From a virus, in IMG/VR virus record IMGVR_UViG_3300008116_000011, positions 64,001 through 128,000 of that record: 64,000 nucleotides of DNA; one strand, given 5' to 3'. The notes below the pieces were generated by a model that was given only the letters and a program-made list of their open reading frames with translations, made no database searches and had not been told where the DNA came from. A program made the translations under genes and the position numbers. Shown piece after piece: positions 2,832-63,854 of this stretch; position 1 is the first letter of the stretch, and each line of letters starts with the position of its first letter.

Positions 2832-4111
2832 TTAAATTTTGTTAAAACATCATTAATGTAATCGAATACTGGTTCACGATAATGAGGAGCAGCTCCTATA
2901 AAGAATACTTTATCTAATACTTTATTTGCTTCAGGATAATCTTTATAGTCATCTAAGTGACTAAATCCAGGATGTAATAATATGTTTCCTGCAAAGTAAT
3001 TTCGAGTTTGTATTTTATTATCTTCTAGATATTGAACTAATCTATGCTTTAGTCCAGGTTCGTCACATATAAATGGCGTTCCAAACCAACATGGTTCTGC
3101 TTTACTTAATCTAGACGGTGCTCTTAATCCAGGGATGTTATCAACAAATATTTGTGTAATTGTTTCTTTACTTCTTTTTCTATTTTTTTCTATTTCTTCA
3201 AATTTATCTAATTGAGCTAATCCAATTGCTCCTTGTAAATCTAACGGTTTTAAGTTATACCCCATCTCAGCAAACACATATTTGTGATCGATTATACCAT
3301 CATAATTTTCAAGCCATTTGTCAAATCTATTTCCACAAGTACCACAAGATAATAAATTAGCTGAGCCTACACAGTAACAATCTCTGCCCCACCAACTTAG
3401 ACTAGTAAATAGTTTTTTAAGTGCTTCATCATTAGTACAAATCATTCCCCCTTCACCTGTTGAAATATGGTGTGCTGGGTAAAATGAATTTGAGTGAGCT
3501 ACATAATAATCAGTAAGTAGTTTTCCATTCCATTTACTTCCTAAGCTATCACAGTTATCACCTATCAATTTAAGATTATACTTATTTGCTAATTCTACCA
3601 ATTTATCGAAATCAGGAGGATTACCTAATACAGGTGAAACAAATATACCTTTAGTTTTTGGTGTAATTTTTTCTTCTATTTTAGCTATATCAAAATTTAA
3701 AGTATCCCATTCAATATCTACAAACACTGGTTTTAGTCTGTTTTGATAAATTACAGATACTGTTGTTGCAAATCCAACAGGTGATACAATTATTTCATCT
3801 TCATCTTGCCAATTAAATCGTTTTTTAAGAGCAGTAATCAATACTAAGTTTGCGGATGAGCCTGAGTTCACCATGTGGGCGTACTTTTGATTAAATTTCT
3901 TTGCAAACCTACTTTCAAATTTATGTACTTTTTCTCCTGCTACAATCCATTTCCCATTTAGGAAAGCATCCATAGCAGCTACTATTTCATTACTATCCCA
4001 GTATGGACCTGAATAATATACTGGAGTTATCCCGGGTTCAAAATGATCATTGTAGATATATTTTGGAACGTGATTTCCAGCTAGTGCTTGTATGTTGGAT
4101 AGTTCTATCAT
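2828..4111 (-). CDS. rfbH: NDP-4-keto-6-deoxyglucose 3-dehydrase (RfbH/DdhC)
   Basis: NSGSSAN, DNCDSLGS, SFYPAHHISTGEGG (His in place of the catalytic Lys), RDCYC..CGTCG Fe-S motif, DHKY, GYNLK. Confidence 0.9.
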   Translation of the reverse strand: MIELSNIQALAGNHVPKYIYNDHFEPGITPVYYSGPYWDSNEIVAAMDAFLNGKWIVAGEKVHKFESRFAKKFNQKYAHMVNSGSSANLVLITALKKRFNWQDEDEIIVSPVGFATTVSVIYQNRLKPVFVDIEWDTLNFDIAKIEEKITPKTKGIFVSPVLGNPPDFDKLVELANKYNLKLIGDNCDSLGSKWNGKLLTDYYVAHSNSFYPAHHISTGEGGMICTNDEALKKLFTSLSWWGRDCYCVGSANLLSCGTCGNRFDKWLENYDGIIDHKYVFAEMGYNLKPLDLQGAIGLAQLDKFEEIEKNRKRSKETITQIFVDNIPGLRAPSRLSKAEPCWFGTPFICDEPGLKHRLVQYLEDNKIQTRNYFAGNILLHPGFSHLDDYKDYPEANKVLDKVFFIGAAPHYREPVFDYINDVLTKFK

Positions 4112-4788
4112 GTTGTATAATTTATAATTTGTTCCCAGTTAATTATTGGAGCTAACCATTCTACTTCACAATGCGTTGCTAAGCTAGGAATAGGAGATAA
4201 AATGGTTCTATTTCTATTTTCTCTTAAAAATTCATATCTATTAAAATCACTACAGTTTGTTGAGTGAGTATCAAAATCTTCTTCTAATATTCTTTTTCCA
4301 AATATTACACTTCCTGTTGTATTAGGAACCCATCTCCAATGATGTGTTTTAGTTAAAAACATATATGTAACTAAATCAGGATACATTGTTGAGTTATATT
4401 TGTCATTATGATCATATAAACTAACATAATCTAAACCATTATATGATTCAAATAACTCTAATACTTTATAAGCCCATCCAGGAACATGAACATAGTCATT
4501 TTCTGCTATATATATTAAGTCTTTATCCCCAATATTTAATTTTTTAGCATAATTCCAAGCATAAAAGTATGAGTTACAATCAGAACCAGCAGTGAATATT
4601 TGAGTATGATGGATTCTTGGATCTACAGGAGCATAATCTCCATCAAGTAAAAGATGAAATTTTACAAAATCTAATCCTTCTATTGTAGTAAGAATATTAT
4701 TTAAACTTTTATCATAAGAAAACCAATAAGGTCTATTTTTACCTAATCCACTAGCATTACTTGTATGTCTATAAAGTATATGTATCAT
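4108..4788 (-). CDS. putative GT-A glycosyltransferase
   Basis: YIAENDYVH (DxD-like), YVSLYDH, PSLATH; cluster context. Confidence 0.55.
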   Translation of the reverse strand: MIHILYRHTSNASGLGKNRPYWFSYDKSLNNILTTIEGLDFVKFHLLLDGDYAPVDPRIHHTQIFTAGSDCNSYFYAWNYAKKLNIGDKDLIYIAENDYVHVPGWAYKVLELFESYNGLDYVSLYDHNDKYNSTMYPDLVTYMFLTKTHHWRWVPNTTGSVIFGKRILEEDFDTHSTNCSDFNRYEFLRENRNRTILSPIPSLATHCEVEWLAPIINWEQIINYTT

Positions 4789-5381
4789 TTTATTTTTTTA
4801 GCAGGTGTCCCAATATATACTCCCGGTTCAATAATATCAGTTAGTACTCCTGAATTTAATCCAATTGTTACATCATTGCATATTTTGGTTTTTTGTTTGT
4901 TACATGATCTAGTTCCAAAATATACTCTATCTCCTATAGTACACGTTCCTGAAATTTGAACTCCAGGAGCGGTTGTAAAATAATTTCCAATTATATTATC
5001 ATGTCCTATAGTTGTTATTAAATTCAAATGAGCATGTTTACCTATTTTACAGTTTGTTGTAATAATAGTACCAGCACATATTATACTTCCTTCACCAATT
5101 TCAACATCAGGTCCGTGTATTTGAGCGGACGGGTGAATATACGTAAAAAATTTAGTGTTTCCAGGTAAAGAATTTACTATTCTTTCTCTTACAACAGGAT
5201 CAGCAATAGCTACTATTACCTGATATTCTGTAGGGTCAAATTTAGATAGGGGTAAAGTTTTGTCTTTTCCTTGGTAGTAATTATCATCTATAAAAAATAC
5301 ACATTCATCTTGTTCTTTAAGGGATAAAGTCCAAAATATTTCTGTTCCAAAACCACCAGCACCTATAATTGCTTTTTTCAT
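4785..5381 (-). CDS. sugar acetyltransferase (PglD/NeuD-like, hexapeptide repeat)
   Basis: IIGAGG, IHPSA, IGEGS repeats, GHD, GTPAK. Confidence 0.9.
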   Translation of the reverse strand: MKKAIIGAGGFGTEIFWTLSLKEQDECVFFIDDNYYQGKDKTLPLSKFDPTEYQVIVAIADPVVRERIVNSLPGNTKFFTYIHPSAQIHGPDVEIGEGSIICAGTIITTNCKIGKHAHLNLITTIGHDNIIGNYFTTAPGVQISGTCTIGDRVYFGTRSCNKQKTKICNDVTIGLNSGVLTDIIEPGVYIGTPAKKIK

Positions 5382-39715: not shown

Positions 39716-39719
39716 AGAG

Positions 39720-39791
39720 TTGTTGTACCAAGATTCGAACTTAGTCTTTATGTTCCGGAAACATACGTGCTATCCCTTACACTATACAACA
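39720..39791 (-). tRNA. tRNA-Arg(CCG)
   Basis: Folded by hand: acceptor TGTTGTA/TACAACA, D arm GTGT/GCAC, anticodon arm TATGT-TTCCGGA-ACATA, T arm CTAAG-TTCGAAT-CTTGG, A73, no encoded CCA. Confidence 0.85.
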
Positions 39792-57326: not shown

Positions 57327-59303
57327 TTATGGTACTATTTTTCCTTCAGGAATTTCTTTATTTCCATTTGCCGTAAATATATCAGTAAGCCATTTATTTT
57401 CCTTCTCTACTCTATCAACAGTAAATGCGGGGAGATTAGCCCAATCCCCTGGAATATTGCTAAATTTATTTGGAAATTTGCGAGGTAAGAAATCATGCAC
57501 AGGAGTAAATGTCATTTGCACAGTCATTACATGAGGTAATTCATACATATTAACACCAGCACCTCCTTCAGGATCATCTATTGCTATTTCCCAAGGTGAC
57601 TTATCATCTATAGTATAAGTTAAATTTTTAATAATTCCTGGTTGGCGATACATGTAATTACCCATAGTGAGTTTCATATATGGTCCTCTCATATTTATGC
57701 CATCATAATCGGGCATTGTGTTTGAGTATAAATAATTTAACTTTTGCCACATCGGTTTCATTTCAGCTTCAGACATTGCTGCTACTTGAAATGTAAATGA
57801 AACATTTCTTTCAAATCCTTTATAGATATAAAAGGGTTCTCCTCTACCTACATAATTCACAGTATTCCAAGTTGGATTAGGATTATCAGATATACTTGTT
57901 AAATAAGATCTAAATATCATCCATGTACTAAGTCCTGGATTAGTTCCATCAACAGCCTCTATTCTAAATTTAATAAGGTCTCTTACGGTAAAGCTCTTTC
58001 CATTTACATTTATTTTGGTATTTGGAGGAGCACCACTTATATATAAAGGGGTAAGGTTAATTTGATCTTGTCTAGGATATTCTGAGTCTGTAGGATTATA
58101 TCCTAATCGTCTTTCAATATTGAATTGTTCTAATGGTAAACCCTTATCAGCATATGACCCTGTTGTAGGTTTATATTTTGAAAATCCTTTAAATGTAAAT
58201 GTTATAGGCCTATCTAAATAGCCTTGGCGGCTTATAGTGCCAGGACCTACTATATCATTATTTGCTTTAACTATATTAGCTGTTCCTATAGCAAAACTTC
58301 CGGTTTGTTGGTTAATTGCATTTATTAAATTATTATAAAGTTTACCTGCCTCTGGGTAATTTATAGCATTTTGATCAATCTGGGAGGGTTTATGTGTGAG
58401 AGAACCAGTAGTTATATTATTATACTCTAAAATTTGATCTCGATTCCAATCAAAATACTCTTCAGAAACACCTTGTGCTAAAAAATAATCAATATCAGGA
58501 ATAGGACGTCTAAATTTAGAAGCCATATTAGAAAGTGATACAACACGAGCTGTACCTGTGTCTACAAGATTAGCAGTAAACCCAGGAAGGGAAGCATCAA
58601 TAGGTAAAACTCTACGTCCACCACCATATTGATTATATTGTTGATTTCCTAATGTATTATAATATCTTGGTATAGTAGTTCGTCCTATACCATCAATAGA
58701 TCCAGGACCGCTAACATATTGATTAATATTAACAGTAGTATTATTACCTGCTGCTACTAATTTATCTTTTAATAATACTAATCTATTATTAGCTCCATTA
58801 GAACCACGAGCATCATTAGCAACTACTACATTTTTATATAATTGACCTTCATTTAATACCGGTAATAAACCATGTCTAGTAATGTGACCACCAAACGCTG
58901 TAATTGGTACTTGAGCTAATGTATTGATACCTAAATTATAGATACGAGTAGGACCTATTTTACCTAATAGTTGTCCTAAAGCATCTGTTCTAGTTTCAAG
59001 TTGAGGATTTGATAATTGTAATCCTACTTGTTTTGCTATAAATAAAGGTCCACGAGGTGGATCAACAAGAAATTTTCCAATACGGAGAGTATCACGAGCA
59101 GAAGCTAGTGTAGCACCAGCAAAACCACCTCTGATTAAACCATTATCTGAGTTCCATATAGTTGTAGATGGAACTTGTTGTTGGTATGGTGGTGGTATTT
59201 TTGTAGTAATATATGGCTCACCACTACTACCTCCTCCTGGTTGATCATTTCCGTATTTAAGACCTCTTAATGCAGTTAATCCAGCTTGTGTAATTATTGG
59301 CAT
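57327..59303 (-). CDS. baseplate / tail-tube initiator protein (gp48/gp54-like C-terminal domain)
   Basis: W....YVGRGEP.Y.Y.GF.R...F.F, LT.G, PG.I..L. Confidence 0.6.
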   Translation of the reverse strand: MPIITQAGLTALRGLKYGNDQPGGGSSGEPYITTKIPPPYQQQVPSTTIWNSDNGLIRGGFAGATLASARDTLRIGKFLVDPPRGPLFIAKQVGLQLSNPQLETRTDALGQLLGKIGPTRIYNLGINTLAQVPITAFGGHITRHGLLPVLNEGQLYKNVVVANDARGSNGANNRLVLLKDKLVAAGNNTTVNINQYVSGPGSIDGIGRTTIPRYYNTLGNQQYNQYGGGRRVLPIDASLPGFTANLVDTGTARVVSLSNMASKFRRPIPDIDYFLAQGVSEEYFDWNRDQILEYNNITTGSLTHKPSQIDQNAINYPEAGKLYNNLINAINQQTGSFAIGTANIVKANNDIVGPGTISRQGYLDRPITFTFKGFSKYKPTTGSYADKGLPLEQFNIERRLGYNPTDSEYPRQDQINLTPLYISGAPPNTKINVNGKSFTVRDLIKFRIEAVDGTNPGLSTWMIFRSYLTSISDNPNPTWNTVNYVGRGEPFYIYKGFERNVSFTFQVAAMSEAEMKPMWQKLNYLYSNTMPDYDGINMRGPYMKLTMGNYMYRQPGIIKNLTYTIDDKSPWEIAIDDPEGGAGVNMYELPHVMTVQMTFTPVHDFLPRKFPNKFSNIPGDWANLPAFTVDRVEKENKWLTDIFTANGNKEIPEGKIVP

Positions 59304-59578
59304 TATCTAGGTAGATTGTCTGTGTATTTTTTTCCAGCTTGGTTTCTATAAGTACTTGTATTCAAAGCATCTTCAGAATCGAGTGCTGTTGGGGCAGGCT
59401 TTGGTGGAACAAACCCAGCACCAACACCATTAATGTTAGGATTTCCGTCAAGAGAGTAAGTATCATGACGTGATCCTGGAGGATTTGGGTTAACCTTAGA
59501 CATCCTATTAGATGGTACAGGACCACCTCCCCAGCCTAATTTGCTTACGCCGCCAAATAATAAATTAAGTAATCCCAT
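59303..59578 (-). CDS. Pro/Gly-rich hypothetical structural-module protein
   Basis: TATTTATA upstream; coupled to the next gene. Confidence 0.55.
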   Translation of the reverse strand: MGLLNLLFGGVSKLGWGGGPVPSNRMSKVNPNPPGSRHDTYSLDGNPNINGVGAGFVPPKPAPTALDSEDALNTSTYRNQAGKKYTDNLPR

Positions 59579-59613: not shown

Positions 59614-61944
59614 TTATGGTAAATTGGTACCAAACATCATTTGAGCTGTGCCTACTTGTTGAATATCAACACCAGCTACAAGTTTCTTATTGACAAATTT
59701 ACCAGTATTTTCTCTAGTAGCACGCAGTTCATTACGCATATCTGTAAATAGTTTTATCATTTCTGAATTGTCTTGGGCAGCGGCCGTTTGTCTATTAGAA
59801 TTACTAATAATATCTTGTAGATCACTTAATGGAGCAATAACTTCAGGATTGTTTGCAGCACCAGAATATTCACCAACAATAGCGTTTGTTTTCCCATATA
59901 CTAAACCACCATTTGCAAATTCAGTAGCATCTTCAGCATTATTCATAGCAGAAGCAATTACACCTACAGCAGTTGCTAAAGCAGCTACTCCTAAAATTAA
60001 GTTTACTGGGTTTAAAAAAGCACTAGTGGCTGCTCCTGCTATTGCTGCTACTCTTAATTGGGCACTCATTAGAGCAATACTACTAACAGTTCTAGCTAGT
60101 GAAAGACCAGCTATTGCTGTTAATACTCCATATAAAACCCCAGTATTACTAGCTATAGAAGCTATAATATCAGCCATTGTTCCTAAAGGACCACCAACAA
60201 GTCTAGCAACAATATCTTGCATTTTTTCCATTGCAAGATTAAATCTATCTTGTGCATTTATTGCTTCTAATCTTTTAGCTACCTCATCACCAGCCAATGC
60301 CCTAACTTCTTCTGTTGATTTATTTAAGTATTGTTGTTTTAATAATTGATCAGATAGTGTATCTGATGTTGTTCCTAAAGCAGCTGCTATTTTATCTTGA
60401 GCAATAACATTCATGTTAGAAAACTTATTAAAATCAATATTTTGATTATTAAGTTCTTTCATTACTGTTGTCATATCACCCATTAAAGCTGCTGTTCTAG
60501 CTCTTTCTAGGTTTAATTGTTGACCAGTTAATAACTCAGCTTGTAATTCATTTTCAATTGATGTTTCAAAATCAAGTAAAGCAGATGCTTGTTTTCTTGT
60601 ATTATCAAGAGTAGTACCTAATAATTTAGCTTGTGCTACCGCTTGTGTTAAGGCAGGAACACTACCTTTAAACATTGCTAAGGTTTGCCCAGATATTTTA
60701 CCTACTTCTTCAAGTACTTCTTTTTGATTTAACTGAATACCATATTGTGAAGATAAATTTTGTGTTGTTTCAAAAGCAATGTTTTTAGATTCTTTTAATG
60801 TTTTACCAGATGCAATAGAAAGTTTTGCTAAACCACCAGCTGCTTCTTCACTTAATCCAATTTGTTTAGTTAATAGAACAAATTGAGAATTTAAGTCATC
60901 TGTAAATTTAGAAGAAAATCCTAATTGTTCACCTAATTTAGCATTAGCTTCTACTAAACGATTAGTATTAAGAGCAACATTTCCTGATTCAACAGCCATT
61001 CTATTGAATTCCTGTCTTACAGTATATGCTTCTTCTCTACTTAATACTAAATTCTTTTGTAATCTAGTTACTTGATCTGAAACTTCTAATGCTACTTTTT
61101 TTAGGTAAGTAAAAATAGTAGTTAAAGATAATGTATTGTGGATATTATCTTTTATTCTTTTTCCTATACCCTCAATTTCATCTTTAAACTTTTTAGCACT
61201 ACTATTTTGTTCTTTTAAAGCTCCAGATAAAGCTTCATTTTTTAAAATTTGTTCCTCTATTAGTTTTAATAATTCTCTATAAAAATCAACTATTTTATCT
61301 GTTTCTTCTTTTTCTTTCTTTTTTTGAATTAAATTCTTTTCATTTAAAGATTGAGTTTTTTCTATAGTATTTATAGAAATATTATTATCTTTTATTCTTT
61401 CTCTAAGTGATTCTTGTTGTGCTTTAGCAAAATCTTTTTGTGTTGTGTTATTAGCATTGTTATAAGCTTCAGTTGCTCTTTCTAACTGTTGTGTTAAATC
61501 AAGTTGATCTTCTAATCGCTCAGTATAACGTGCTCTTATAGCTATTCCTTCGTCTTCTAATTTTTTTACATCCTCTTGTAATTTACTTTGAAGAGATTTA
61601 GCTTGGTTTATTTTGCTATTTTCGTTTTGTTCTTCTTTAGCATATTCGTTTTTTAAACGAGCAAGTGTCTCTAATTGTTTATCAATGTCTATTTGCTTTA
61701 ATTTTCCTGCATATAGCTTATCTGATAGTTTAAGAGTATTAGTAAGTGCTCTGCCTATTTCTTTAGTGCCATCTATTAATTTTCTATCTTCTACATTAAC
61801 TCCTCCTAATCTTTTAGCAAAAGTTTGAATATTATCAGAAAGTACCCTAGATAAACTAATGGATTCTCTAAGAGAATCATTGTACTCAGCTAATCGTTCT
61901 TGAGCACTTCTTATATCTTTTTCATTAGGTGTATTATCAGCCAT
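59614..61944 (-). CDS. tape measure protein
   Basis: Long helical/coiled-coil protein with an Ala-rich hydrophobic region, FANGGLV..GE...PEVI.PL; follows the tail chaperone. Confidence 0.8.
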   Translation of the reverse strand: MADNTPNEKDIRSAQERLAEYNDSLRESISLSRVLSDNIQTFAKRLGGVNVEDRKLIDGTKEIGRALTNTLKLSDKLYAGKLKQIDIDKQLETLARLKNEYAKEEQNENSKINQAKSLQSKLQEDVKKLEDEGIAIRARYTERLEDQLDLTQQLERATEAYNNANNTTQKDFAKAQQESLRERIKDNNISINTIEKTQSLNEKNLIQKKKEKEETDKIVDFYRELLKLIEEQILKNEALSGALKEQNSSAKKFKDEIEGIGKRIKDNIHNTLSLTTIFTYLKKVALEVSDQVTRLQKNLVLSREEAYTVRQEFNRMAVESGNVALNTNRLVEANAKLGEQLGFSSKFTDDLNSQFVLLTKQIGLSEEAAGGLAKLSIASGKTLKESKNIAFETTQNLSSQYGIQLNQKEVLEEVGKISGQTLAMFKGSVPALTQAVAQAKLLGTTLDNTRKQASALLDFETSIENELQAELLTGQQLNLERARTAALMGDMTTVMKELNNQNIDFNKFSNMNVIAQDKIAAALGTTSDTLSDQLLKQQYLNKSTEEVRALAGDEVAKRLEAINAQDRFNLAMEKMQDIVARLVGGPLGTMADIIASIASNTGVLYGVLTAIAGLSLARTVSSIALMSAQLRVAAIAGAATSAFLNPVNLILGVAALATAVGVIASAMNNAEDATEFANGGLVYGKTNAIVGEYSGAANNPEVIAPLSDLQDIISNSNRQTAAAQDNSEMIKLFTDMRNELRATRENTGKFVNKKLVAGVDIQQVGTAQMMFGTNLP

Positions 61945-61969
61945 AGTAAAATATTACCAATATAAATAT

Positions 61970-61997
61970 AAAAGCGCCTTATTTTTTAGGCGCTTTT
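61970..61997 (-). terminator. terminator hairpin directly followed by TATTTATA
   Basis: AAAAGCGCCT/AGGCGCTTTT stem; the motif at 61961-61968 precedes the tape measure gene. Confidence 0.65.
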
Positions 61998-62239
61998 GCT
62001 GTGTATGTTGGTTTTATATTAGGTTTTGCTGTTTGAGCTGTTTTGGATTTTAGTGATTTTTGTTGTTTTTCTTGGTCTTTTGCTTGTTTTTCATAATGTT
62101 CTCGTAATTGTCTATAAATAAAATCACGATATCTTATAGGTAAGCTATAAACAGTATCCCAATCGTAACCACCATTTCCGAAAAATACAATTTCATGTAT
62201 TCTAGAGAATAGGTATTCCCTATATTTAGGATTCAGGCC
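61979..62239 (-). CDS. start-less ORF: frameshift extension of the tail chaperone (gpT/gp51-like)
   Basis: 86 codons, GLNPKYREYLFSRIHEIVFFGNGGYDWDTVYSLPIRYRDF...; no in-frame ATG/GTG/TTG; begins right after a T7 run. Confidence 0.75.
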   Translation of the reverse strand, partial: GLNPKYREYLFSRIHEIVFFGNGGYDWDTVYSLPIRYRDFIYRQLREHYEKQAKDQEKQQKSLKSKTAQTAKPNIKPTYTAKAPKK

Positions 62240-62981
62240 AAAAAAAGTTAATATTAATAGGAATAATTACGCCCTCCTGTACGTAACCATCCTTATTAAT
62301 CGTAATTTCAGTATTAATATCTGGAGATAGTTGACTGTAGTATTTTTTAAATGCTCTAGAATCGGGAACAAGTAAGTAGTTGTCTACAAAATCACGTATA
62401 GATGCTTGATCGGCTTTACCATTAATAGAAGTAATCATGTGCTTCAAACGAGTAGTATTTTCAAAAGCACCATTAGGATCAATTTTTTCTAAACCTTTAA
62501 TTTCAGCATCAATTGCTTTTTCATCTTTACCTGTTAGTAATTTGAATGTAACAACATTTTCTGATTGAGGTAAGGTAAATTTAAATTCATTTTTGCCTTT
62601 TTCAAATAATGATTCGTTAATTTCTTTTTCTTTTAATGTAGTTAAATCAACAGTATAATCTTCATCTTTACCAGTTGATTCATTTCTAAATCTAAAAGAA
62701 TATTCCTTACCATATCCTAAAATACGAGCAGCAAATAAAATTGCATTTTTATCACCTACAATCAATTCATCAATGTCAATTGGTGTAACAATTAATGATT
62801 TTAGCAATTTATCAATTGCCGTACCTTGTTTGATAAAGTTAATATTAGTTAATATGTCTTCATCTTTAGCAGACATATAACGCATTTCAATTTCGCCTTT
62901 AGATAATAGTGATGTTTCAGGATATACAAGACCTTTTGAAGGTAATGAAACCGTTTCTGTTGGAATTTTTAATTCAGCCAT
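62226..62981 (-). CDS. tail/baseplate hub assembly chaperone (gp26-like, gpG analogue)
   Basis: LPSKG..YP, M.AKDEDIL, GDKNAIL..AR..GYG, C-terminal FFWP; between tail tube and tape measure. Confidence 0.75.
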   Translation of the reverse strand: MAELKIPTETVSLPSKGLVYPETSLLSKGEIEMRYMSAKDEDILTNINFIKQGTAIDKLLKSLIVTPIDIDELIVGDKNAILFAARILGYGKEYSFRFRNESTGKDEDYTVDLTTLKEKEINESLFEKGKNEFKFTLPQSENVVTFKLLTGKDEKAIDAEIKGLEKIDPNGAFENTTRLKHMITSINGKADQASIRDFVDNYLLVPDSRAFKKYYSQLSPDINTEITINKDGYVQEGVIIPININFFWPES

Positions 62982-63030: not shown

Positions 63031-63058
63031 AAAAAGAAACCCGGTATTTCTACCGGGT
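63031..63058 (-). terminator. intrinsic terminator
   Basis: ACCCGGTA-GAAA-TACCGGGT followed by TTCTTTTT. Confidence 0.8.
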
Positions 63059-63095
63059 CCTTCCTCCAACGAGTGATTACACCATTATCACCCAA

Positions 63096-63356
63096 TTATT
63101 TATTAGAAGCAGATACTTCTTCTTTCAAGGCTTTAAAAGCTTCAGCTAATTTTTTATACTTAGATTTAGCTGCTTTTTCACCAGCAGCGTATCCAGCACC
63201 GTATACTTCCTCTTCACCTTTATCTTTAGCTACTTTACCTTTTACACCTTTATCAACGCGTTTAAATTCGTCGTCGCCTTTGCTTTTCTTTTTTCTTTCT
63301 TCTAGTACTTCAGAAATGCATTCTTGCACTAATGATTGTAGATCTTGTTTTTTCAT
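63096..63356 (-). CDS. small charged protein, possible internal head protein
   Basis: N-terminus MKKQDLQSLVQECISEVLEE. Confidence 0.5.
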   Translation of the reverse strand: MKKQDLQSLVQECISEVLEERKKKSKGDDEFKRVDKGVKGKVAKDKGEEEVYGAGYAAGEKAAKSKYKKLAEAFKALKEEVSASNK

Positions 63357-63362
63357 TGATAA

Positions 63363-63854
63363 TTAGTAGTTTAAGATGCAATAATCCATTCCAACACTCA
63401 TAGTAAGGTTGATAGCTTCAGTATAAGTAGACCAATCATAATCGTCAAAGTTTGCAGTCTTAATGAAAGCACCTTTAACAATCCATTCTGATACTACGTC
63501 ACCTACTGGGCCTAAGCCATTGAATGTTAAATCTTTCTTATAGAAGTCAGAATAACCAGCGCGGCCAGTTACTGATTCGTATGCTAAACGAGCCCATTCC
63601 ATTACAGCTTGAGCACCGCTTGGAGCGATTGGATCAAATAAGGTGAAAGTCATATCACCCCAAAGTCTTTTACCGCTACGAATTTTTCTATAAGTGTTAA
63701 TATGATCTAATATAATCTCACCATCATCGAATGTTACGGCACTTACTCCTTTAACAATATATGATGGGATACCGTCTATATACATTATGAACCTATTAGG
63801 AACTTTAGGTTCATATTGTGTAAACATAATTTCGTTTGCGTCTAATACAGGCAT
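63363..63854 (-). CDS. tail tube protein (gp19-like)
   Basis: EPK..NRF, G...W......L.DPI, ME W, YKKD, W...GAF, final DY. Confidence 0.88.
   Translation of the reverse strand: MPVLDANEIMFTQYEPKVPNRFIMYIDGIPSYIVKGVSAVTFDDGEIILDHINTYRKIRSGKRLWGDMTFTLFDPIAPSGAQAVMEWARLAYESVTGRAGYSDFYKKDLTFNGLGPVGDVVSEWIVKGAFIKTANFDDYDWSTYTEAINLTMSVGMDYCILNY

What the first reader, a model, noticed from the sequence alone, without database searches (positions are those of the whole stretch)
61979..62260. Hidden +1/-2 programmed frameshift extending the tail-assembly chaperone
Seen: the gp26-like ORF ends AAC TTT TTT TGG CCT GAA TCC TAA (N-F-F-W-P-E-S). The U7 run (62240-62246) opens directly into an 86-codon +1-frame ORF (GGC CTG AAT..., GLNPKYREYLFSRIHEIVFFGNGGYDWDTVYSLPIRYR...). 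This ORF has no in-frame ATG/GTG/TTG, is closed by a TAA about 9 codons upstream of the GGC, fills the whole gap to the tape measure gene, and ends in a terminator hairpin. Known: lambda G/GT-type chaperones upstream of tape measure genes are made by programmed frameshifting, usually -1 (-2 in Mu). Inference: this T4-like phage makes a 251-aa and a ~333/334-aa product by +1 slip of tRNA-Phe at a Trp codon, or by -2 slip. The FFWP ending would then be a recoding signal, and annotation pipelines would miss the second product.
Basis: partly seen in the sequence, partly recalled or inferred. Interest (0 to 1): 0.8.

Follow-up and report, generated by a model that had tools for sequence, protein, structure and literature searches.

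The report
Forward frameshift in phage tail-chaperone gene
One tail-assembly gene of this uncultured 174-kb T4-related phage very probably makes a 251-residue and a 333-residue protein because some ribosomes slip one base forward on a strictly conserved run of seven U's, doing with one gene what phage T4 does with its two genes 26 and 51.

Summary
The gp26-like gene (62981..62226, minus strand) ends AAC TTT TTT TGG CCT GAA TCC TAA. A start-less +1-frame ORF of 86 codons runs from GGC to a terminator hairpin just before the tape measure gene.

It is not a sequencing error. All 80 related loci examined keep the same two frames and an invariant block, TTA-RC-TTT-YTT-TGG-CCT-GA. Synonymous variation across it is zero, against a gene mean of 1.04 bits. 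Stops in both frames confine the shift to the T-run. ORF2 shows a coding pattern of substitutions, and its profile finds 659 clusters. The 150 best listed are all short separate ORFs, never fused.

Distant isolates (SP-15, LIS04, HSE3, GXN1, Mel-JY01, immuto) also need +1, at UUU_U or UUU_C sites without a long homopolymer. This favours ribosomal +1 slippage over -2 or transcriptional slippage.

Sister clades (S-PM2, HTVC008M, Atu_ph07, XacN1) use -1 on U_UUU_UUY. T4 has two paralogous genes, 26 and 51.

Gp26/gp51 as T4-like tail chaperones were published in 2022 (Vladimirov et al., which I could not read). This is therefore a +1 variant of a known system. This scan has noted the same thing on other DNA.

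The parts
62226..62981 (-). ORF1: gp26-type tail assembly chaperone, short form (TAC-N), 251 aa including the frame-0 tail W-P-E-S
   Evidence: PF12322 at 30.2 bits against a cut-off of 24.5, and phrog_150 at E 3e-12. The AlphaFold model has pLDDT 87 and matches gp26/gp51-type viral models with TM up to 0.85. It is the only PF12322 gene in the 174-kb genome.
62240..62246 (-). Slippery run U7 (frame 0: UUU UUU U), the proposed +1 shift site
   Evidence: T7 or T3CT3 in all 80 loci that reach the junction and in 10 further loci. Stops in the +1 frame (as close as one codon upstream in L099) and in frame 0 (5-8 codons downstream) confine the shift to this run.
62233..62251 (-). Invariant 19-nt block TTA-AC-TTTTTTT-GGCCTGA around the shift site
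   Evidence: Third-position entropy is 0 over six codons, against a gene mean of 1.04 bits; this is the lowest window in the gene. GGC and CTG are the rarest Gly and Leu codons of the genome.
61979..62239 (-). ORF2: the +1-frame extension, 86 codons plus stop, giving the long form of 247 + 86 = 333 aa (TAC-NC); probably a Gp51_C-like domain
   Evidence: The joined translation is. Entropy by codon position is 0.73, 0.53 and 1.14 bits, the pattern of a translated frame. The profile finds 659 clusters at E <= 1e-3. The predicted fold is a helical hairpin followed by a basic tail.
62267..62269 (-). TAA that closes the +1 frame nine codons upstream of GGC
61970..61997 (-). Terminator-like hairpin that contains the ORF2 stop codon
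63037..63060 (-). Terminator-like hairpin upstream of ORF1; with the one above it brackets ORF1 and ORF2 as one unit
59614..61944 (-). Tape measure protein gene (776 aa), the presumed client of the chaperone
   Evidence: Position, size and coiled-coil-like sequence. The gene in the same position is annotated as tape measure in immuto, SP-15, HSE3 and LIS04.
63363..63854 (-). Tail tube protein gene (163 aa)
   Evidence: phrog_4542 tail tube protein, E 2e-11

Best explanation
ORF1 and ORF2 form one recoded gene for the tail assembly chaperone of a T4-related myophage. Most ribosomes read frame 0 to the TAA and make the 251-aa short form. A minority slip one base forward while peptidyl-tRNA-Phe sits on a UUU codon of the U7 run (UUU_U re-pairs perfectly with UUU). 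They then read GGC CUG... and make a 333-aa long form with the junction ...I-N-F-F-G-L-N-P-K.... By analogy with lambda gpG/gpGT, and with T4 gp26/gp51, the shared N-part would coat the tape measure protein. The extension (a helical hairpin plus a Lys-rich tail) would recruit tube subunits. Shown here: the two frames, their conservation, the narrow shift window, the coding signature of ORF2, and the gp26 fold of ORF1. Inferred: that the ribosome rather than RNA polymerase slips, the direction (+1 rather than -2), the ratio of products, and the chaperone activities.
For: Frames and site. In 80 of 80 related loci ORF2 is in the +1 frame at TTT-YTT-TGG-CCT; 10 more loci agree. Synonymous variation is zero over six codons against a gene mean of 1.04 bits, and TTC is never used at the site although it is 17% of Phe codons elsewhere. 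+1-frame stops lie 1-3 codons upstream in seven lineages and frame-0 stops 5-8 codons downstream, so the shift falls in the run. 53 of 80 loci have no start codon. Gene callers chose many different starts, and the 150 best of 659 hit clusters contain no fused form. ORF2 has a coding pattern of substitutions. +1 rather than -2 or RNA-polymerase slippage: the immuto/L082 lineage has TTT CTT TGG, a broken run kept over 63% ORF1 identity. SP-15, LIS04, HSE3, GXN1 and LR756508 need +1 at TTT_T or TTT_C sites such as GAG TTC TTT CGT and AAC TTT CTA, where a -2 re-pairing is poor and no homopolymer exists. No conserved downstream RNA structure was found, as is usual for +1 sites. UUU is among the most +1-prone P-site codons in the prfB context (PMC10885494, citing Curran 1993). 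Chaperone identity: the gene order tube - gp26-like - tape measure; PF12322; T4 gp26 and gp51 are both PF12322 paralogues, and gp51 carries a C-extension; full-length fold matches to gp26/gp51-type models; the N-terminal ~95 residues align to the HK97 tail assembly chaperone 2ob9 (Z 4.9) and to 3fgx (Z 5.8), well above the next row at Z 2.0. Terminators bracket ORF1 and ORF2.
Against: There are no protein or RNA data. No slow A-site codon is evident, since UGG occurs at 11.9 per 1000 codons. No Shine-Dalgarno-like or structural stimulator was found. The full T7 is conserved although a UUU_U slip needs only four U's; that would also fit a homopolymer-dependent mechanism such as transcriptional slippage or -2. 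Homology of ORF2 to the gp51 C-terminus is not statistically established. The title of Vladimirov et al. [quoted passage not shown]
Confidence: 0.75

Rival explanations
1. Transcriptional slippage. RNA polymerase drops one U on the T7 run, and the U6 mRNA encodes the fused 333-aa protein in a single frame.
For: The whole T7 is conserved, not just the four U's needed for a tRNA-Phe slip. Only a few per cent of long form is needed, by analogy with lambda gpGT. The title of Vladimirov et al. 2022 points to a non-translational route in T4-like phages (seen only as a citation).
Against: The cultured phage immuto and L082 carry TTTCTTT. HSE3, GXN1 and LR756508 have only T3 at the junction, yet keep the same +1 arrangement. 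According to PMC10885494, the 'other mechanism' of that paper is two separate genes, not slippage.
Confidence: 0.12
2. A -2 ribosomal frameshift. Peptidyl-tRNA-Phe on the second UUU slides back two bases, a third Phe is read, and the product is 334 aa (...NFFFGLNPK...).
For: The U7 run allows perfect re-pairing at -2. The +1 and -2 frames cannot be told apart from sequence. Sister clades slip backwards (-1) on similar runs.
Against: At GAG TTC TTT CGT (HSE3, GXN1) and AAC TTT CTA (LR756508) a -2 re-pairing would hit UCU or ACU, whereas +1 gives UUC.
Confidence: 0.07
3. ORF2 is translated on its own, by non-canonical initiation or by termination-reinitiation after ORF1, and no fusion protein exists.
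For: Some loci have a TTG in the +1 frame upstream (27 of 80). CTG follows GGC in most loci.
Against: No start codon is conserved. Protein-level conservation of ORF2 begins at G-L, inside ORF1. CTG is CTA in Mel-JY01. In T4 the equivalent extension is covalently part of gp51.
Confidence: 0.04
4. Sequencing or assembly error, or a pseudogene: the true gene is a single 333-aa ORF with T6.
For: Homopolymers are error-prone. No read data were available to check this one.
Against: More than 8000 clusters from independent assemblies show the ~251-aa ORF1. 80 of 80 loci keep the two frames. The 150 best of 659 ORF2 clusters contain no fused form.
Confidence: 0.01

Closest known systems
Phage T4 gp26 (208 aa) and gp51 (249 aa), identified as the tail assembly chaperones of T4-like phages by Vladimirov, Gautam and Davidson, Virology 2022, 566:9-15 (not held; known here through PMC10885494 and PMC12846349)
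   Same: ORF1 belongs to the same Pfam family, PF12322, and has the same predicted fold. T4 gp26 stops three residues after ...EFF. gp51 reads on from ...DVFKLL into a C-terminal extension, at the place where the window switches frame after ...NFF.
   Different: T4 makes the short and long forms from two diverged paralogous genes on opposite strands, which are sisters on the tree (95/84). The window has one gene and needs a +1 shift. Similarity of ORF2 to the gp51 extension rests on position, a visual collinear pattern, an Atlas lead (PF28602 Gp51_C, score 0.91) and one phrog_634 hit in 74 sequences. It has no significant profile match.
gp26 plus small 'gp51' of Kyanoviridae (S-PM2, HTVC008M) and of the jumbo phages Atu_ph07, XacN1 and RAS14
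   Same: The gene family is the same, the short form again ends in ...FF on a T-run, and a start-less extension ORF follows.
   Different: There the extension lies in the -1 frame behind a canonical U_UUU_UUY heptamer. Here the base before the run is never T, the -1 frame closes after two codons, and the open frame is +1.
Lambda gpG/gpGT and the conserved tail-chaperone frameshift of long-tailed phages (Xu, Hendrix, Duda 2004, as cited in PMC10885494)
   Same: The gene sits just upstream of the tape measure gene, with tube or major tail genes upstream. The two products share an N-terminus, and the second ORF has no start.
   Different: Lambda uses -1 at G_GGA_AAG. There is no sequence similarity. 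Only a modest fold resemblance exists, between the first ~95 residues and the HK97 chaperone (Z 4.9).
E. coli prfB (CUU_UGA_C) and yeast Ty1 (CUU_AGG_C) +1 frameshift sites; UUU_Y +1-prone sites (Schwartz and Curran 1997, from my own knowledge)
   Same: A P-site tRNA re-pairs one base forward (UUU_U; CUU_U or UUU_C in immuto), and no downstream structure is required.
   Different: The A-site holds no stop or demonstrably rare codon, and there is no upstream Shine-Dalgarno-like element.

Membership tests
Frameshifted tail assembly chaperone (lambda G/GT type) | Gene lies between the tail tube (major tail) gene and the tape measure gene | tested here: met
   Order is tube 63854..63363, an 86-aa ORF, ORF1, ORF2, tape measure 61944..59614. 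The same order is seen in immuto, Mel-JY01, SP-15, HSE3 and LIS04.
Frameshifted tail assembly chaperone (lambda G/GT type) | A second ORF overlaps the 3' end of the first, lacks its own start, and is conserved as coding | tested here: met
Frameshifted tail assembly chaperone (lambda G/GT type) | Canonical -1 slippery heptamer X_XXY_YYZ leading into the second ORF | tested here: not met
   The second ORF is in the +1 frame. The -1 frame reads TTG GCC TGA and stops.
Frameshifted tail assembly chaperone (lambda G/GT type) | Both the short and the long product are made, with the long one in the minority | not testable with these tools
   Needs proteomics or reporter assays.
Frameshifted tail assembly chaperone (lambda G/GT type) | Fold of solved tail assembly chaperones | tested here: inconclusive
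   Residues 1-99 align to 3fgx_A (Z 5.8, rmsd 4.0, 83 aligned) and to HK97 TAC 2ob9_B (Z 4.9, rmsd 4.4, 80 aligned). The next row has Z 2.0. The Foldseek E-value is only 1.6.
T4 gp26/gp51 family (Pfam PF12322 T4_baseplate) | HMM match above the curated cut-off | tested here: met
   30.2 bits against 24.5, over residues 25-152. The six-frame search of the genome finds the same match.
T4 gp26/gp51 family (Pfam PF12322 T4_baseplate) | Full-length fold shared with family members | tested here: met
   BFVD: SP-15 baseplate hub subunit, TM 0.84-0.85, E 1e-17. 57 matches at E <= 1e-3, many named baseplate hub subunit or assembly protein.
T4 gp26/gp51 family (Pfam PF12322 T4_baseplate) | C-terminal extension of the Gp51_C type (PF28602) on the long form | tested here: inconclusive
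   PF28602 is not in the local Pfam. There is an Atlas lead at 0.91. One of 74 relatives hits phrog_634, at E 0.005. hhalign and hmmsearch were not significant.
Programmed +1 ribosomal frameshift (prfB / Ty1 / UUU_Y type) | The P-site codon allows the tRNA to re-pair at +1 | tested here: met
   UUU_U in the window. UUU_C or CUU_U in immuto. UUU_C or UUU_U in SP-15, LIS04, HSE3, GXN1 and LR756508.
Programmed +1 ribosomal frameshift (prfB / Ty1 / UUU_Y type) | A slowly decoded A-site codon (stop or rare codon) | tested here: inconclusive
   UGG occurs at 11.9 per 1000 codons, and the phage carries no tRNA-Trp, -Phe or -Gly. Host tRNA levels are unknown.
Programmed +1 ribosomal frameshift (prfB / Ty1 / UUU_Y type) | An upstream Shine-Dalgarno-like stimulator (prfB type) | tested here: not met
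   The bases upstream of the invariant block vary (AAT ATT, GGG ATT, TCT CTT); no conserved purine tract.
Transcriptional slippage | A homopolymer run of about 7 or more at the junction throughout the family | tested here: not met
   T7 in the window, but TTTCTTT in immuto and L082, and T3 in HSE3, GXN1 and LR756508.

The most novel reading that the evidence does not exclude
The block U7-GGCCU is a self-sufficient, stimulator-free +1 recoding signal used by a very large clade of environmental phages whose nearest cultured relative infects Flavobacterium. The same ancestral Phe-Phe T-run at the end of gp26-type chaperones has been re-used in evolution for -1 shifting, for +1 shifting and for replacement by gene duplication. 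If so, the direction of a programmed frameshift is evolutionarily interchangeable at one site. The invariant use of the genome's rarest Gly and Leu codons (GGC CUG) would then be part of the signal.
Probability: 0.3. Interest if true: 0.65.

Novelty: new variant of a known kind. Interest (0 to 1): 0.5.

Why it matters
The long form of this tail chaperone is missing from database records. Immuto, Mel-JY01, SP-15, HSE3 and LIS04 all annotate a 'baseplate hub subunit' plus a stray small ORF or nothing. Only 64 called proteins match ORF2, against more than 8000 clusters for ORF1.

Recognising the +1 shift corrects the annotation of a very abundant group of environmental phages. It adds a natural bacterial-virus +1 frameshift site with neither a stop codon nor an upstream stimulator. 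It also gives a comparative series for asking what sets the direction and efficiency of ribosome slippage: +1, -1 and two genes, all at one homologous junction.

Finally, it supports the view that T4's genes 26 and 51 are the split equivalent of the G/GT chaperone pair.

Tried and rejected
Downstream RNA structure: RNAalifold on 24 junctions from -12 to +90 predicted no pairs.

Homology of ORF2 to the T4 gp51 C-terminus:
- hhalign of two ORF2 alignments against gp51 gave E 0.07 and 0.03, on a different region.
- A fused-product profile against gp51 gave nothing meaningful.
- phmmer and hmmsearch gave no hit.
- PF28602 is absent from the local Pfam.

Pfam and PHROG searches with ORF2 and with the distant +1 ORFs gave only noise. 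Sequence search of solved structures with the ORF1 and ORF2 profiles gave nothing. Foldseek against the PDB had no match at E <= 0.001.

Search for in-frame fused forms: none among the 150 best of 659 hits. The weaker hits are not listed, so fused forms among them are not excluded.

A viral-contig scan with P0216 found nothing.

The paper by Vladimirov et al. 2022 is not held, and searches for a text describing its content gave only two one-sentence summaries.

The four-letter codes TTTT=F and AACT=N misread other places in the gene. TGGC=G gave the clean fusion.

Full report
WHAT IS THERE. All genes in this part of the window lie on the minus strand. In order they are:
- a tail tube gene, 63854..63363 (phrog_4542);
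- an 86-aa Lys/Glu-rich ORF;
- a terminator-like hairpin, 63060..63037;
- ORF1, 62981..62226 (251 aa);
- a +1-frame ORF that ends at 61979;
- a second terminator-like hairpin, 61997..61970, which contains that stop;
- a 776-aa tape measure gene starting at 61944.

ORF1 ends AAC TTT TTT TGG CCT GAA TCC TAA. The +1 frame is closed by a TAA at 62269..62267. It is then open for 95 codons and reads ...L-T-F-F-G-L-N-P-K-Y-R-E-Y.... It contains no ATG, GTG or TTG. The -1 frame stops after two codons (TTG GCC TGA). Reading TGGC as one step gives the predicted trans-frame product of 333 aa: 247 residues of ORF1 plus 86 of ORF2.

IT IS NOT AN ERROR AND NOT CHANCE.
- A search with ORF1 returned the maximum of 8000 scored clusters, and the best 120 are almost all exactly 251 aa.
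- Eighty viral contigs with 55-92% identical ORF1 were fetched. In every one that reaches the junction, and in Flavobacterium phage immuto and Microcystis phage Mel-JY01, the ORF2 homologue lies in the +1 frame. The junction reads TTT-YTT-TGG-CCT in 49 distinct 60-nt contexts. Ten more divergent loci show the same.
- Across 60 unique loci, third-position entropy is exactly 0 for six consecutive codons ([I/V/L]-[N/S]-F-F-W-P), against a gene mean of 1.04 bits. This is the lowest window in the gene. TTC supplies 17% of Phe codons elsewhere in ORF1 but is never used here.
- In its own frame ORF2 has entropies of 0.73, 0.53 and 1.14 bits at codon positions 1, 2 and 3, the signature of a translated frame.
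- A profile of ORF2 searched against 1.84 billion representative proteins found 659 clusters at E <= 1e-3. The 150 best are all short stand-alone calls whose match begins at many different residues. Gene callers therefore guess different starts, and no in-frame fusion to a gp26-like N-part appears.
- Only 64 called proteins match ORF2 in the 5.8-billion collection, so pipelines do mostly miss it.

WHERE THE SHIFT MUST HAPPEN. In six lineages (L017, L020, L039, L044, L071, L082) a TAG closes the +1 frame three codons before the run. In L099 a TAG lies one codon before ACT TTT TTT GGC. Frame 0 ends 5-8 codons after the first TTT. The only stretch common to all is [N]AC/AGC/AAG - TTT YTT TGG CCT, that is, the T-run. 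53 of 80 loci have no ATG, GTG or TTG anywhere in the +1 frame near the junction, which argues against separate initiation.

WHICH MECHANISM. The sequence alone cannot separate +1 from -2, but the relatives help.
- Immuto and L082 are 63% identical to each other in ORF1 and are nearest neighbours, so probably one event. They carry TTT CTT TGG, which breaks the homopolymer yet keeps UUU_C and CUU_U, both classical +1 re-pairing sites.
- Five much more distant phages keep the order tube - gp26-like - tape measure: Bacillus SP-15, Listeria LIS04, Bacillus HSE3, Streptococcus GXN1 and the 484-kb assembly LR756508. All have a start-less ORF in the +1 frame.
- Their junctions are GAA TTT TTT CAC, GAG TTT TTT AGT, GAG TTC TTT CGT, GAA TTC TTT CGT and AAC TTT CTA.
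- What these share is UUU followed by a pyrimidine. At the last three, a -2 re-pairing would land on UCU or ACU, and there is no run for RNA polymerase to slip on.

A +1 slip of peptidyl-tRNA-Phe on UUU_Y is therefore the one mechanism that fits all of them. Within U7 either Phe codon can be the launch site, and both give the same product (...N-F-F-G-L...). No conserved RNA structure follows the site, and no purine-rich element precedes it. PMC10885494, citing Curran 1993, notes that UUU is among the most +1-prone codons in the prfB context.

Two things remain unexplained.
- The whole T7 is conserved, not just UUU_U.
- GGC and CTG are invariant, although they are the rarest Gly and Leu codons of this 31.9% GC genome, at 3.8 and 1.0 per 1000 codons.

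Two partial explanations can be offered, both as inference. The base before the run is never T, which avoids the -1 heptamer U_UUU_UUU. The invariant CCTGA (CCTAA in Mel-JY01) places a -1-frame stop right after the run. UGG is not rare, and W-P follows from the T-run plus the +1-frame GGC CTG (G-L), whose rare codons are themselves the open question. The phage carries only tRNA-Leu(taa), -Thr(tgt) and -Arg(ccg).

WHAT THE PROTEIN IS.
- ORF1 matches PF12322 (T4_baseplate) at 30.2 bits, against a cut-off of 24.5, and phrog_150 'baseplate hub'.
- Its AlphaFold model is confident (pLDDT 87, pTM 0.82), with confidence falling over the last ten residues, where the junction lies.
- The model matches gp26/gp51-type viral models over its full length (SP-15 'baseplate hub subunit', TM 0.84; 57 matches at E <= 1e-3).
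- Among solved structures only two rows stand out, both over the first ~95 residues: 3fgx (Z 5.8) and the HK97 tail assembly chaperone 2ob9 (Z 4.9). The next row has Z 2.0. This is suggestive, not proof.
- ORF2 is predicted as helix - short hairpin - long helix, followed by a disordered Lys-rich tail (pLDDT about 71-80 in the core).

In T4, gp26 (208 aa) and gp51 (249 aa) both match PF12322 end to end, and gp51 has about 48 extra C-terminal residues. A newer Pfam release calls this extension PF28602 Gp51_C. T4 gp26 stops at ...KEFFELL, while gp51 reads ...VDVFKLLVNPDEIF... through the same point. This is where the window changes frame after ...NFF.

The window genome is a 174,437-bp record with terminal repeats, judged complete. 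It has a single PF12322 gene; T4 has two. The window therefore does with one recoded gene what T4 does with two.

The link between ORF2 and Gp51_C is supported by position and by a collinear pattern visible by eye. It also has an Atlas lead (0.91) and one phrog_634 hit among 74 relatives. Profile comparisons were not significant, so I treat that homology as probable, not shown.

THE WIDER PICTURE. In the cyanophage S-PM2 and the pelagiphage HTVC008M, gp26 ends ...QSFF on TCT TTT TTC / AGT TTT TTT T. The small annotated 'gp51' is a start-less ORF in the -1 frame behind a canonical U_UUU_UUY heptamer. Atu_ph07, XacN1 and RAS14 are also -1. On a tree of 24 gp26-type sequences:
- T4 gp26 and gp51 are sisters (95/84), and group with the Kyanoviridae;
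- the window clade (13 rows, all +1) is well supported (97/94);
- the direction of the shift needs at least three changes among the three states.

The Phe-Phe T-run at the end of the short form is thus ancient, and the way the long form is reached has changed between clades.

WHAT IS KNOWN. The conserved frameshift of tail chaperone genes is textbook (Xu, Hendrix, Duda 2004). [quoted passage not shown] I could not read that paper. PMC10885494 summarises it as follows: some T4-like phages carry one short gene and one longer fused gene instead of frameshifting. PMC12846349 cites it for poly-T -1 signals in TAC-N genes of T4-like phages. One GenBank record already names gp51 'tape measure protein assembly chaperone'.

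I found no text that describes a +1 version in this family. None of the seven +1 phage records examined annotates a joined product. I therefore rate this a new variant (+1 direction, no stop codon or upstream stimulator) of a known kind. The caveat is that the 2022 paper may already cover it.

This scan has reported the same gp26/gp51 recoding, in both -1 and +1 forms, on other genomes and on this same stretch. Some of those notes say that no paper reports it; the 2022 paper qualifies that claim.

VERDICT. Recoding at this site is very likely real (about 0.93). A +1 ribosomal slip is the best mechanism (0.75). Transcriptional slippage (0.12) and -2 (0.07) are the live rivals. The function as a tail assembly chaperone pair is inferred from gene order, family and fold.

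Noticed in passing
window 62233-62239 (minus strand) and the same position in L001-L082: The invariant CCTGA after the T-run (CCTAA in Mel-JY01) puts a stop in the -1 frame two codons after the run, in all 49 junction contexts. Any backward slip would therefore end at once, in a product of nearly the short-form length.
   Followed up: partly
L088 (T4) 3803-4429 minus and 4480-5229 plus: T4 gp26 ends ...KEFFELL-stop, while its paralogue gp51 reads ...VDVFKLLVNPDE... through the same point. The Phe-Phe junction is kept even where two genes replace the frameshift. The annotated internal product 26' covers PF12322 positions 121-219.
   Followed up: partly
L108 (S-PM2) 1625-1864; L109 (HTVC008M); L110, L111, L112: The small ORFs annotated 'gp51 baseplate hub assembly catalyst' in Kyanoviridae, and the unnamed small ORFs after the gp26-like gene in Atu_ph07, XacN1 and RAS14, are start-less -1-frame extensions behind U_UUU_UUY. 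None is annotated as a joined product.
   Followed up: partly
window 63096-63356 (minus strand): An 86-aa Lys/Glu-rich ORF lies between the tube gene and the chaperone gene. It has no family match, and a strong terminator-like hairpin (63060..63037) follows it.
   Followed up: no
window 57327-59578 (minus strand): The 91-aa and 658-aa ORFs directly after the tape measure gene have no Pfam or PHROG match at the thresholds used.
   Followed up: no
own genome C1 c[59339,59726] (outside the window) and window about 39719-39791: ARAGORN calls a tmRNA-like gene (tag DEMSTMTFDDLMAFVGADEATFA) and three tRNAs in the phage genome: Leu-taa, Thr-tgt and Arg-ccg. The tmRNA call may be a false positive.
   Followed up: no
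P0191, P0208, P0216 (representatives): A few ORF2-like representatives lack the FFGL motif and begin with a plausible Met some 25 residues upstream (...DPAFVQRL......EVFRELVES...). They may be lineages with a separately initiated extension or another junction type. Their contigs could not be fetched.
   Followed up: partly
window 61945-61975 (minus strand): Between the ORF2 terminator and the tape measure ATG lies TTTTATATTTATATTGG. It includes the TATTTATA motif that other readers of this genome flagged as a promoter-like element.
   Followed up: no
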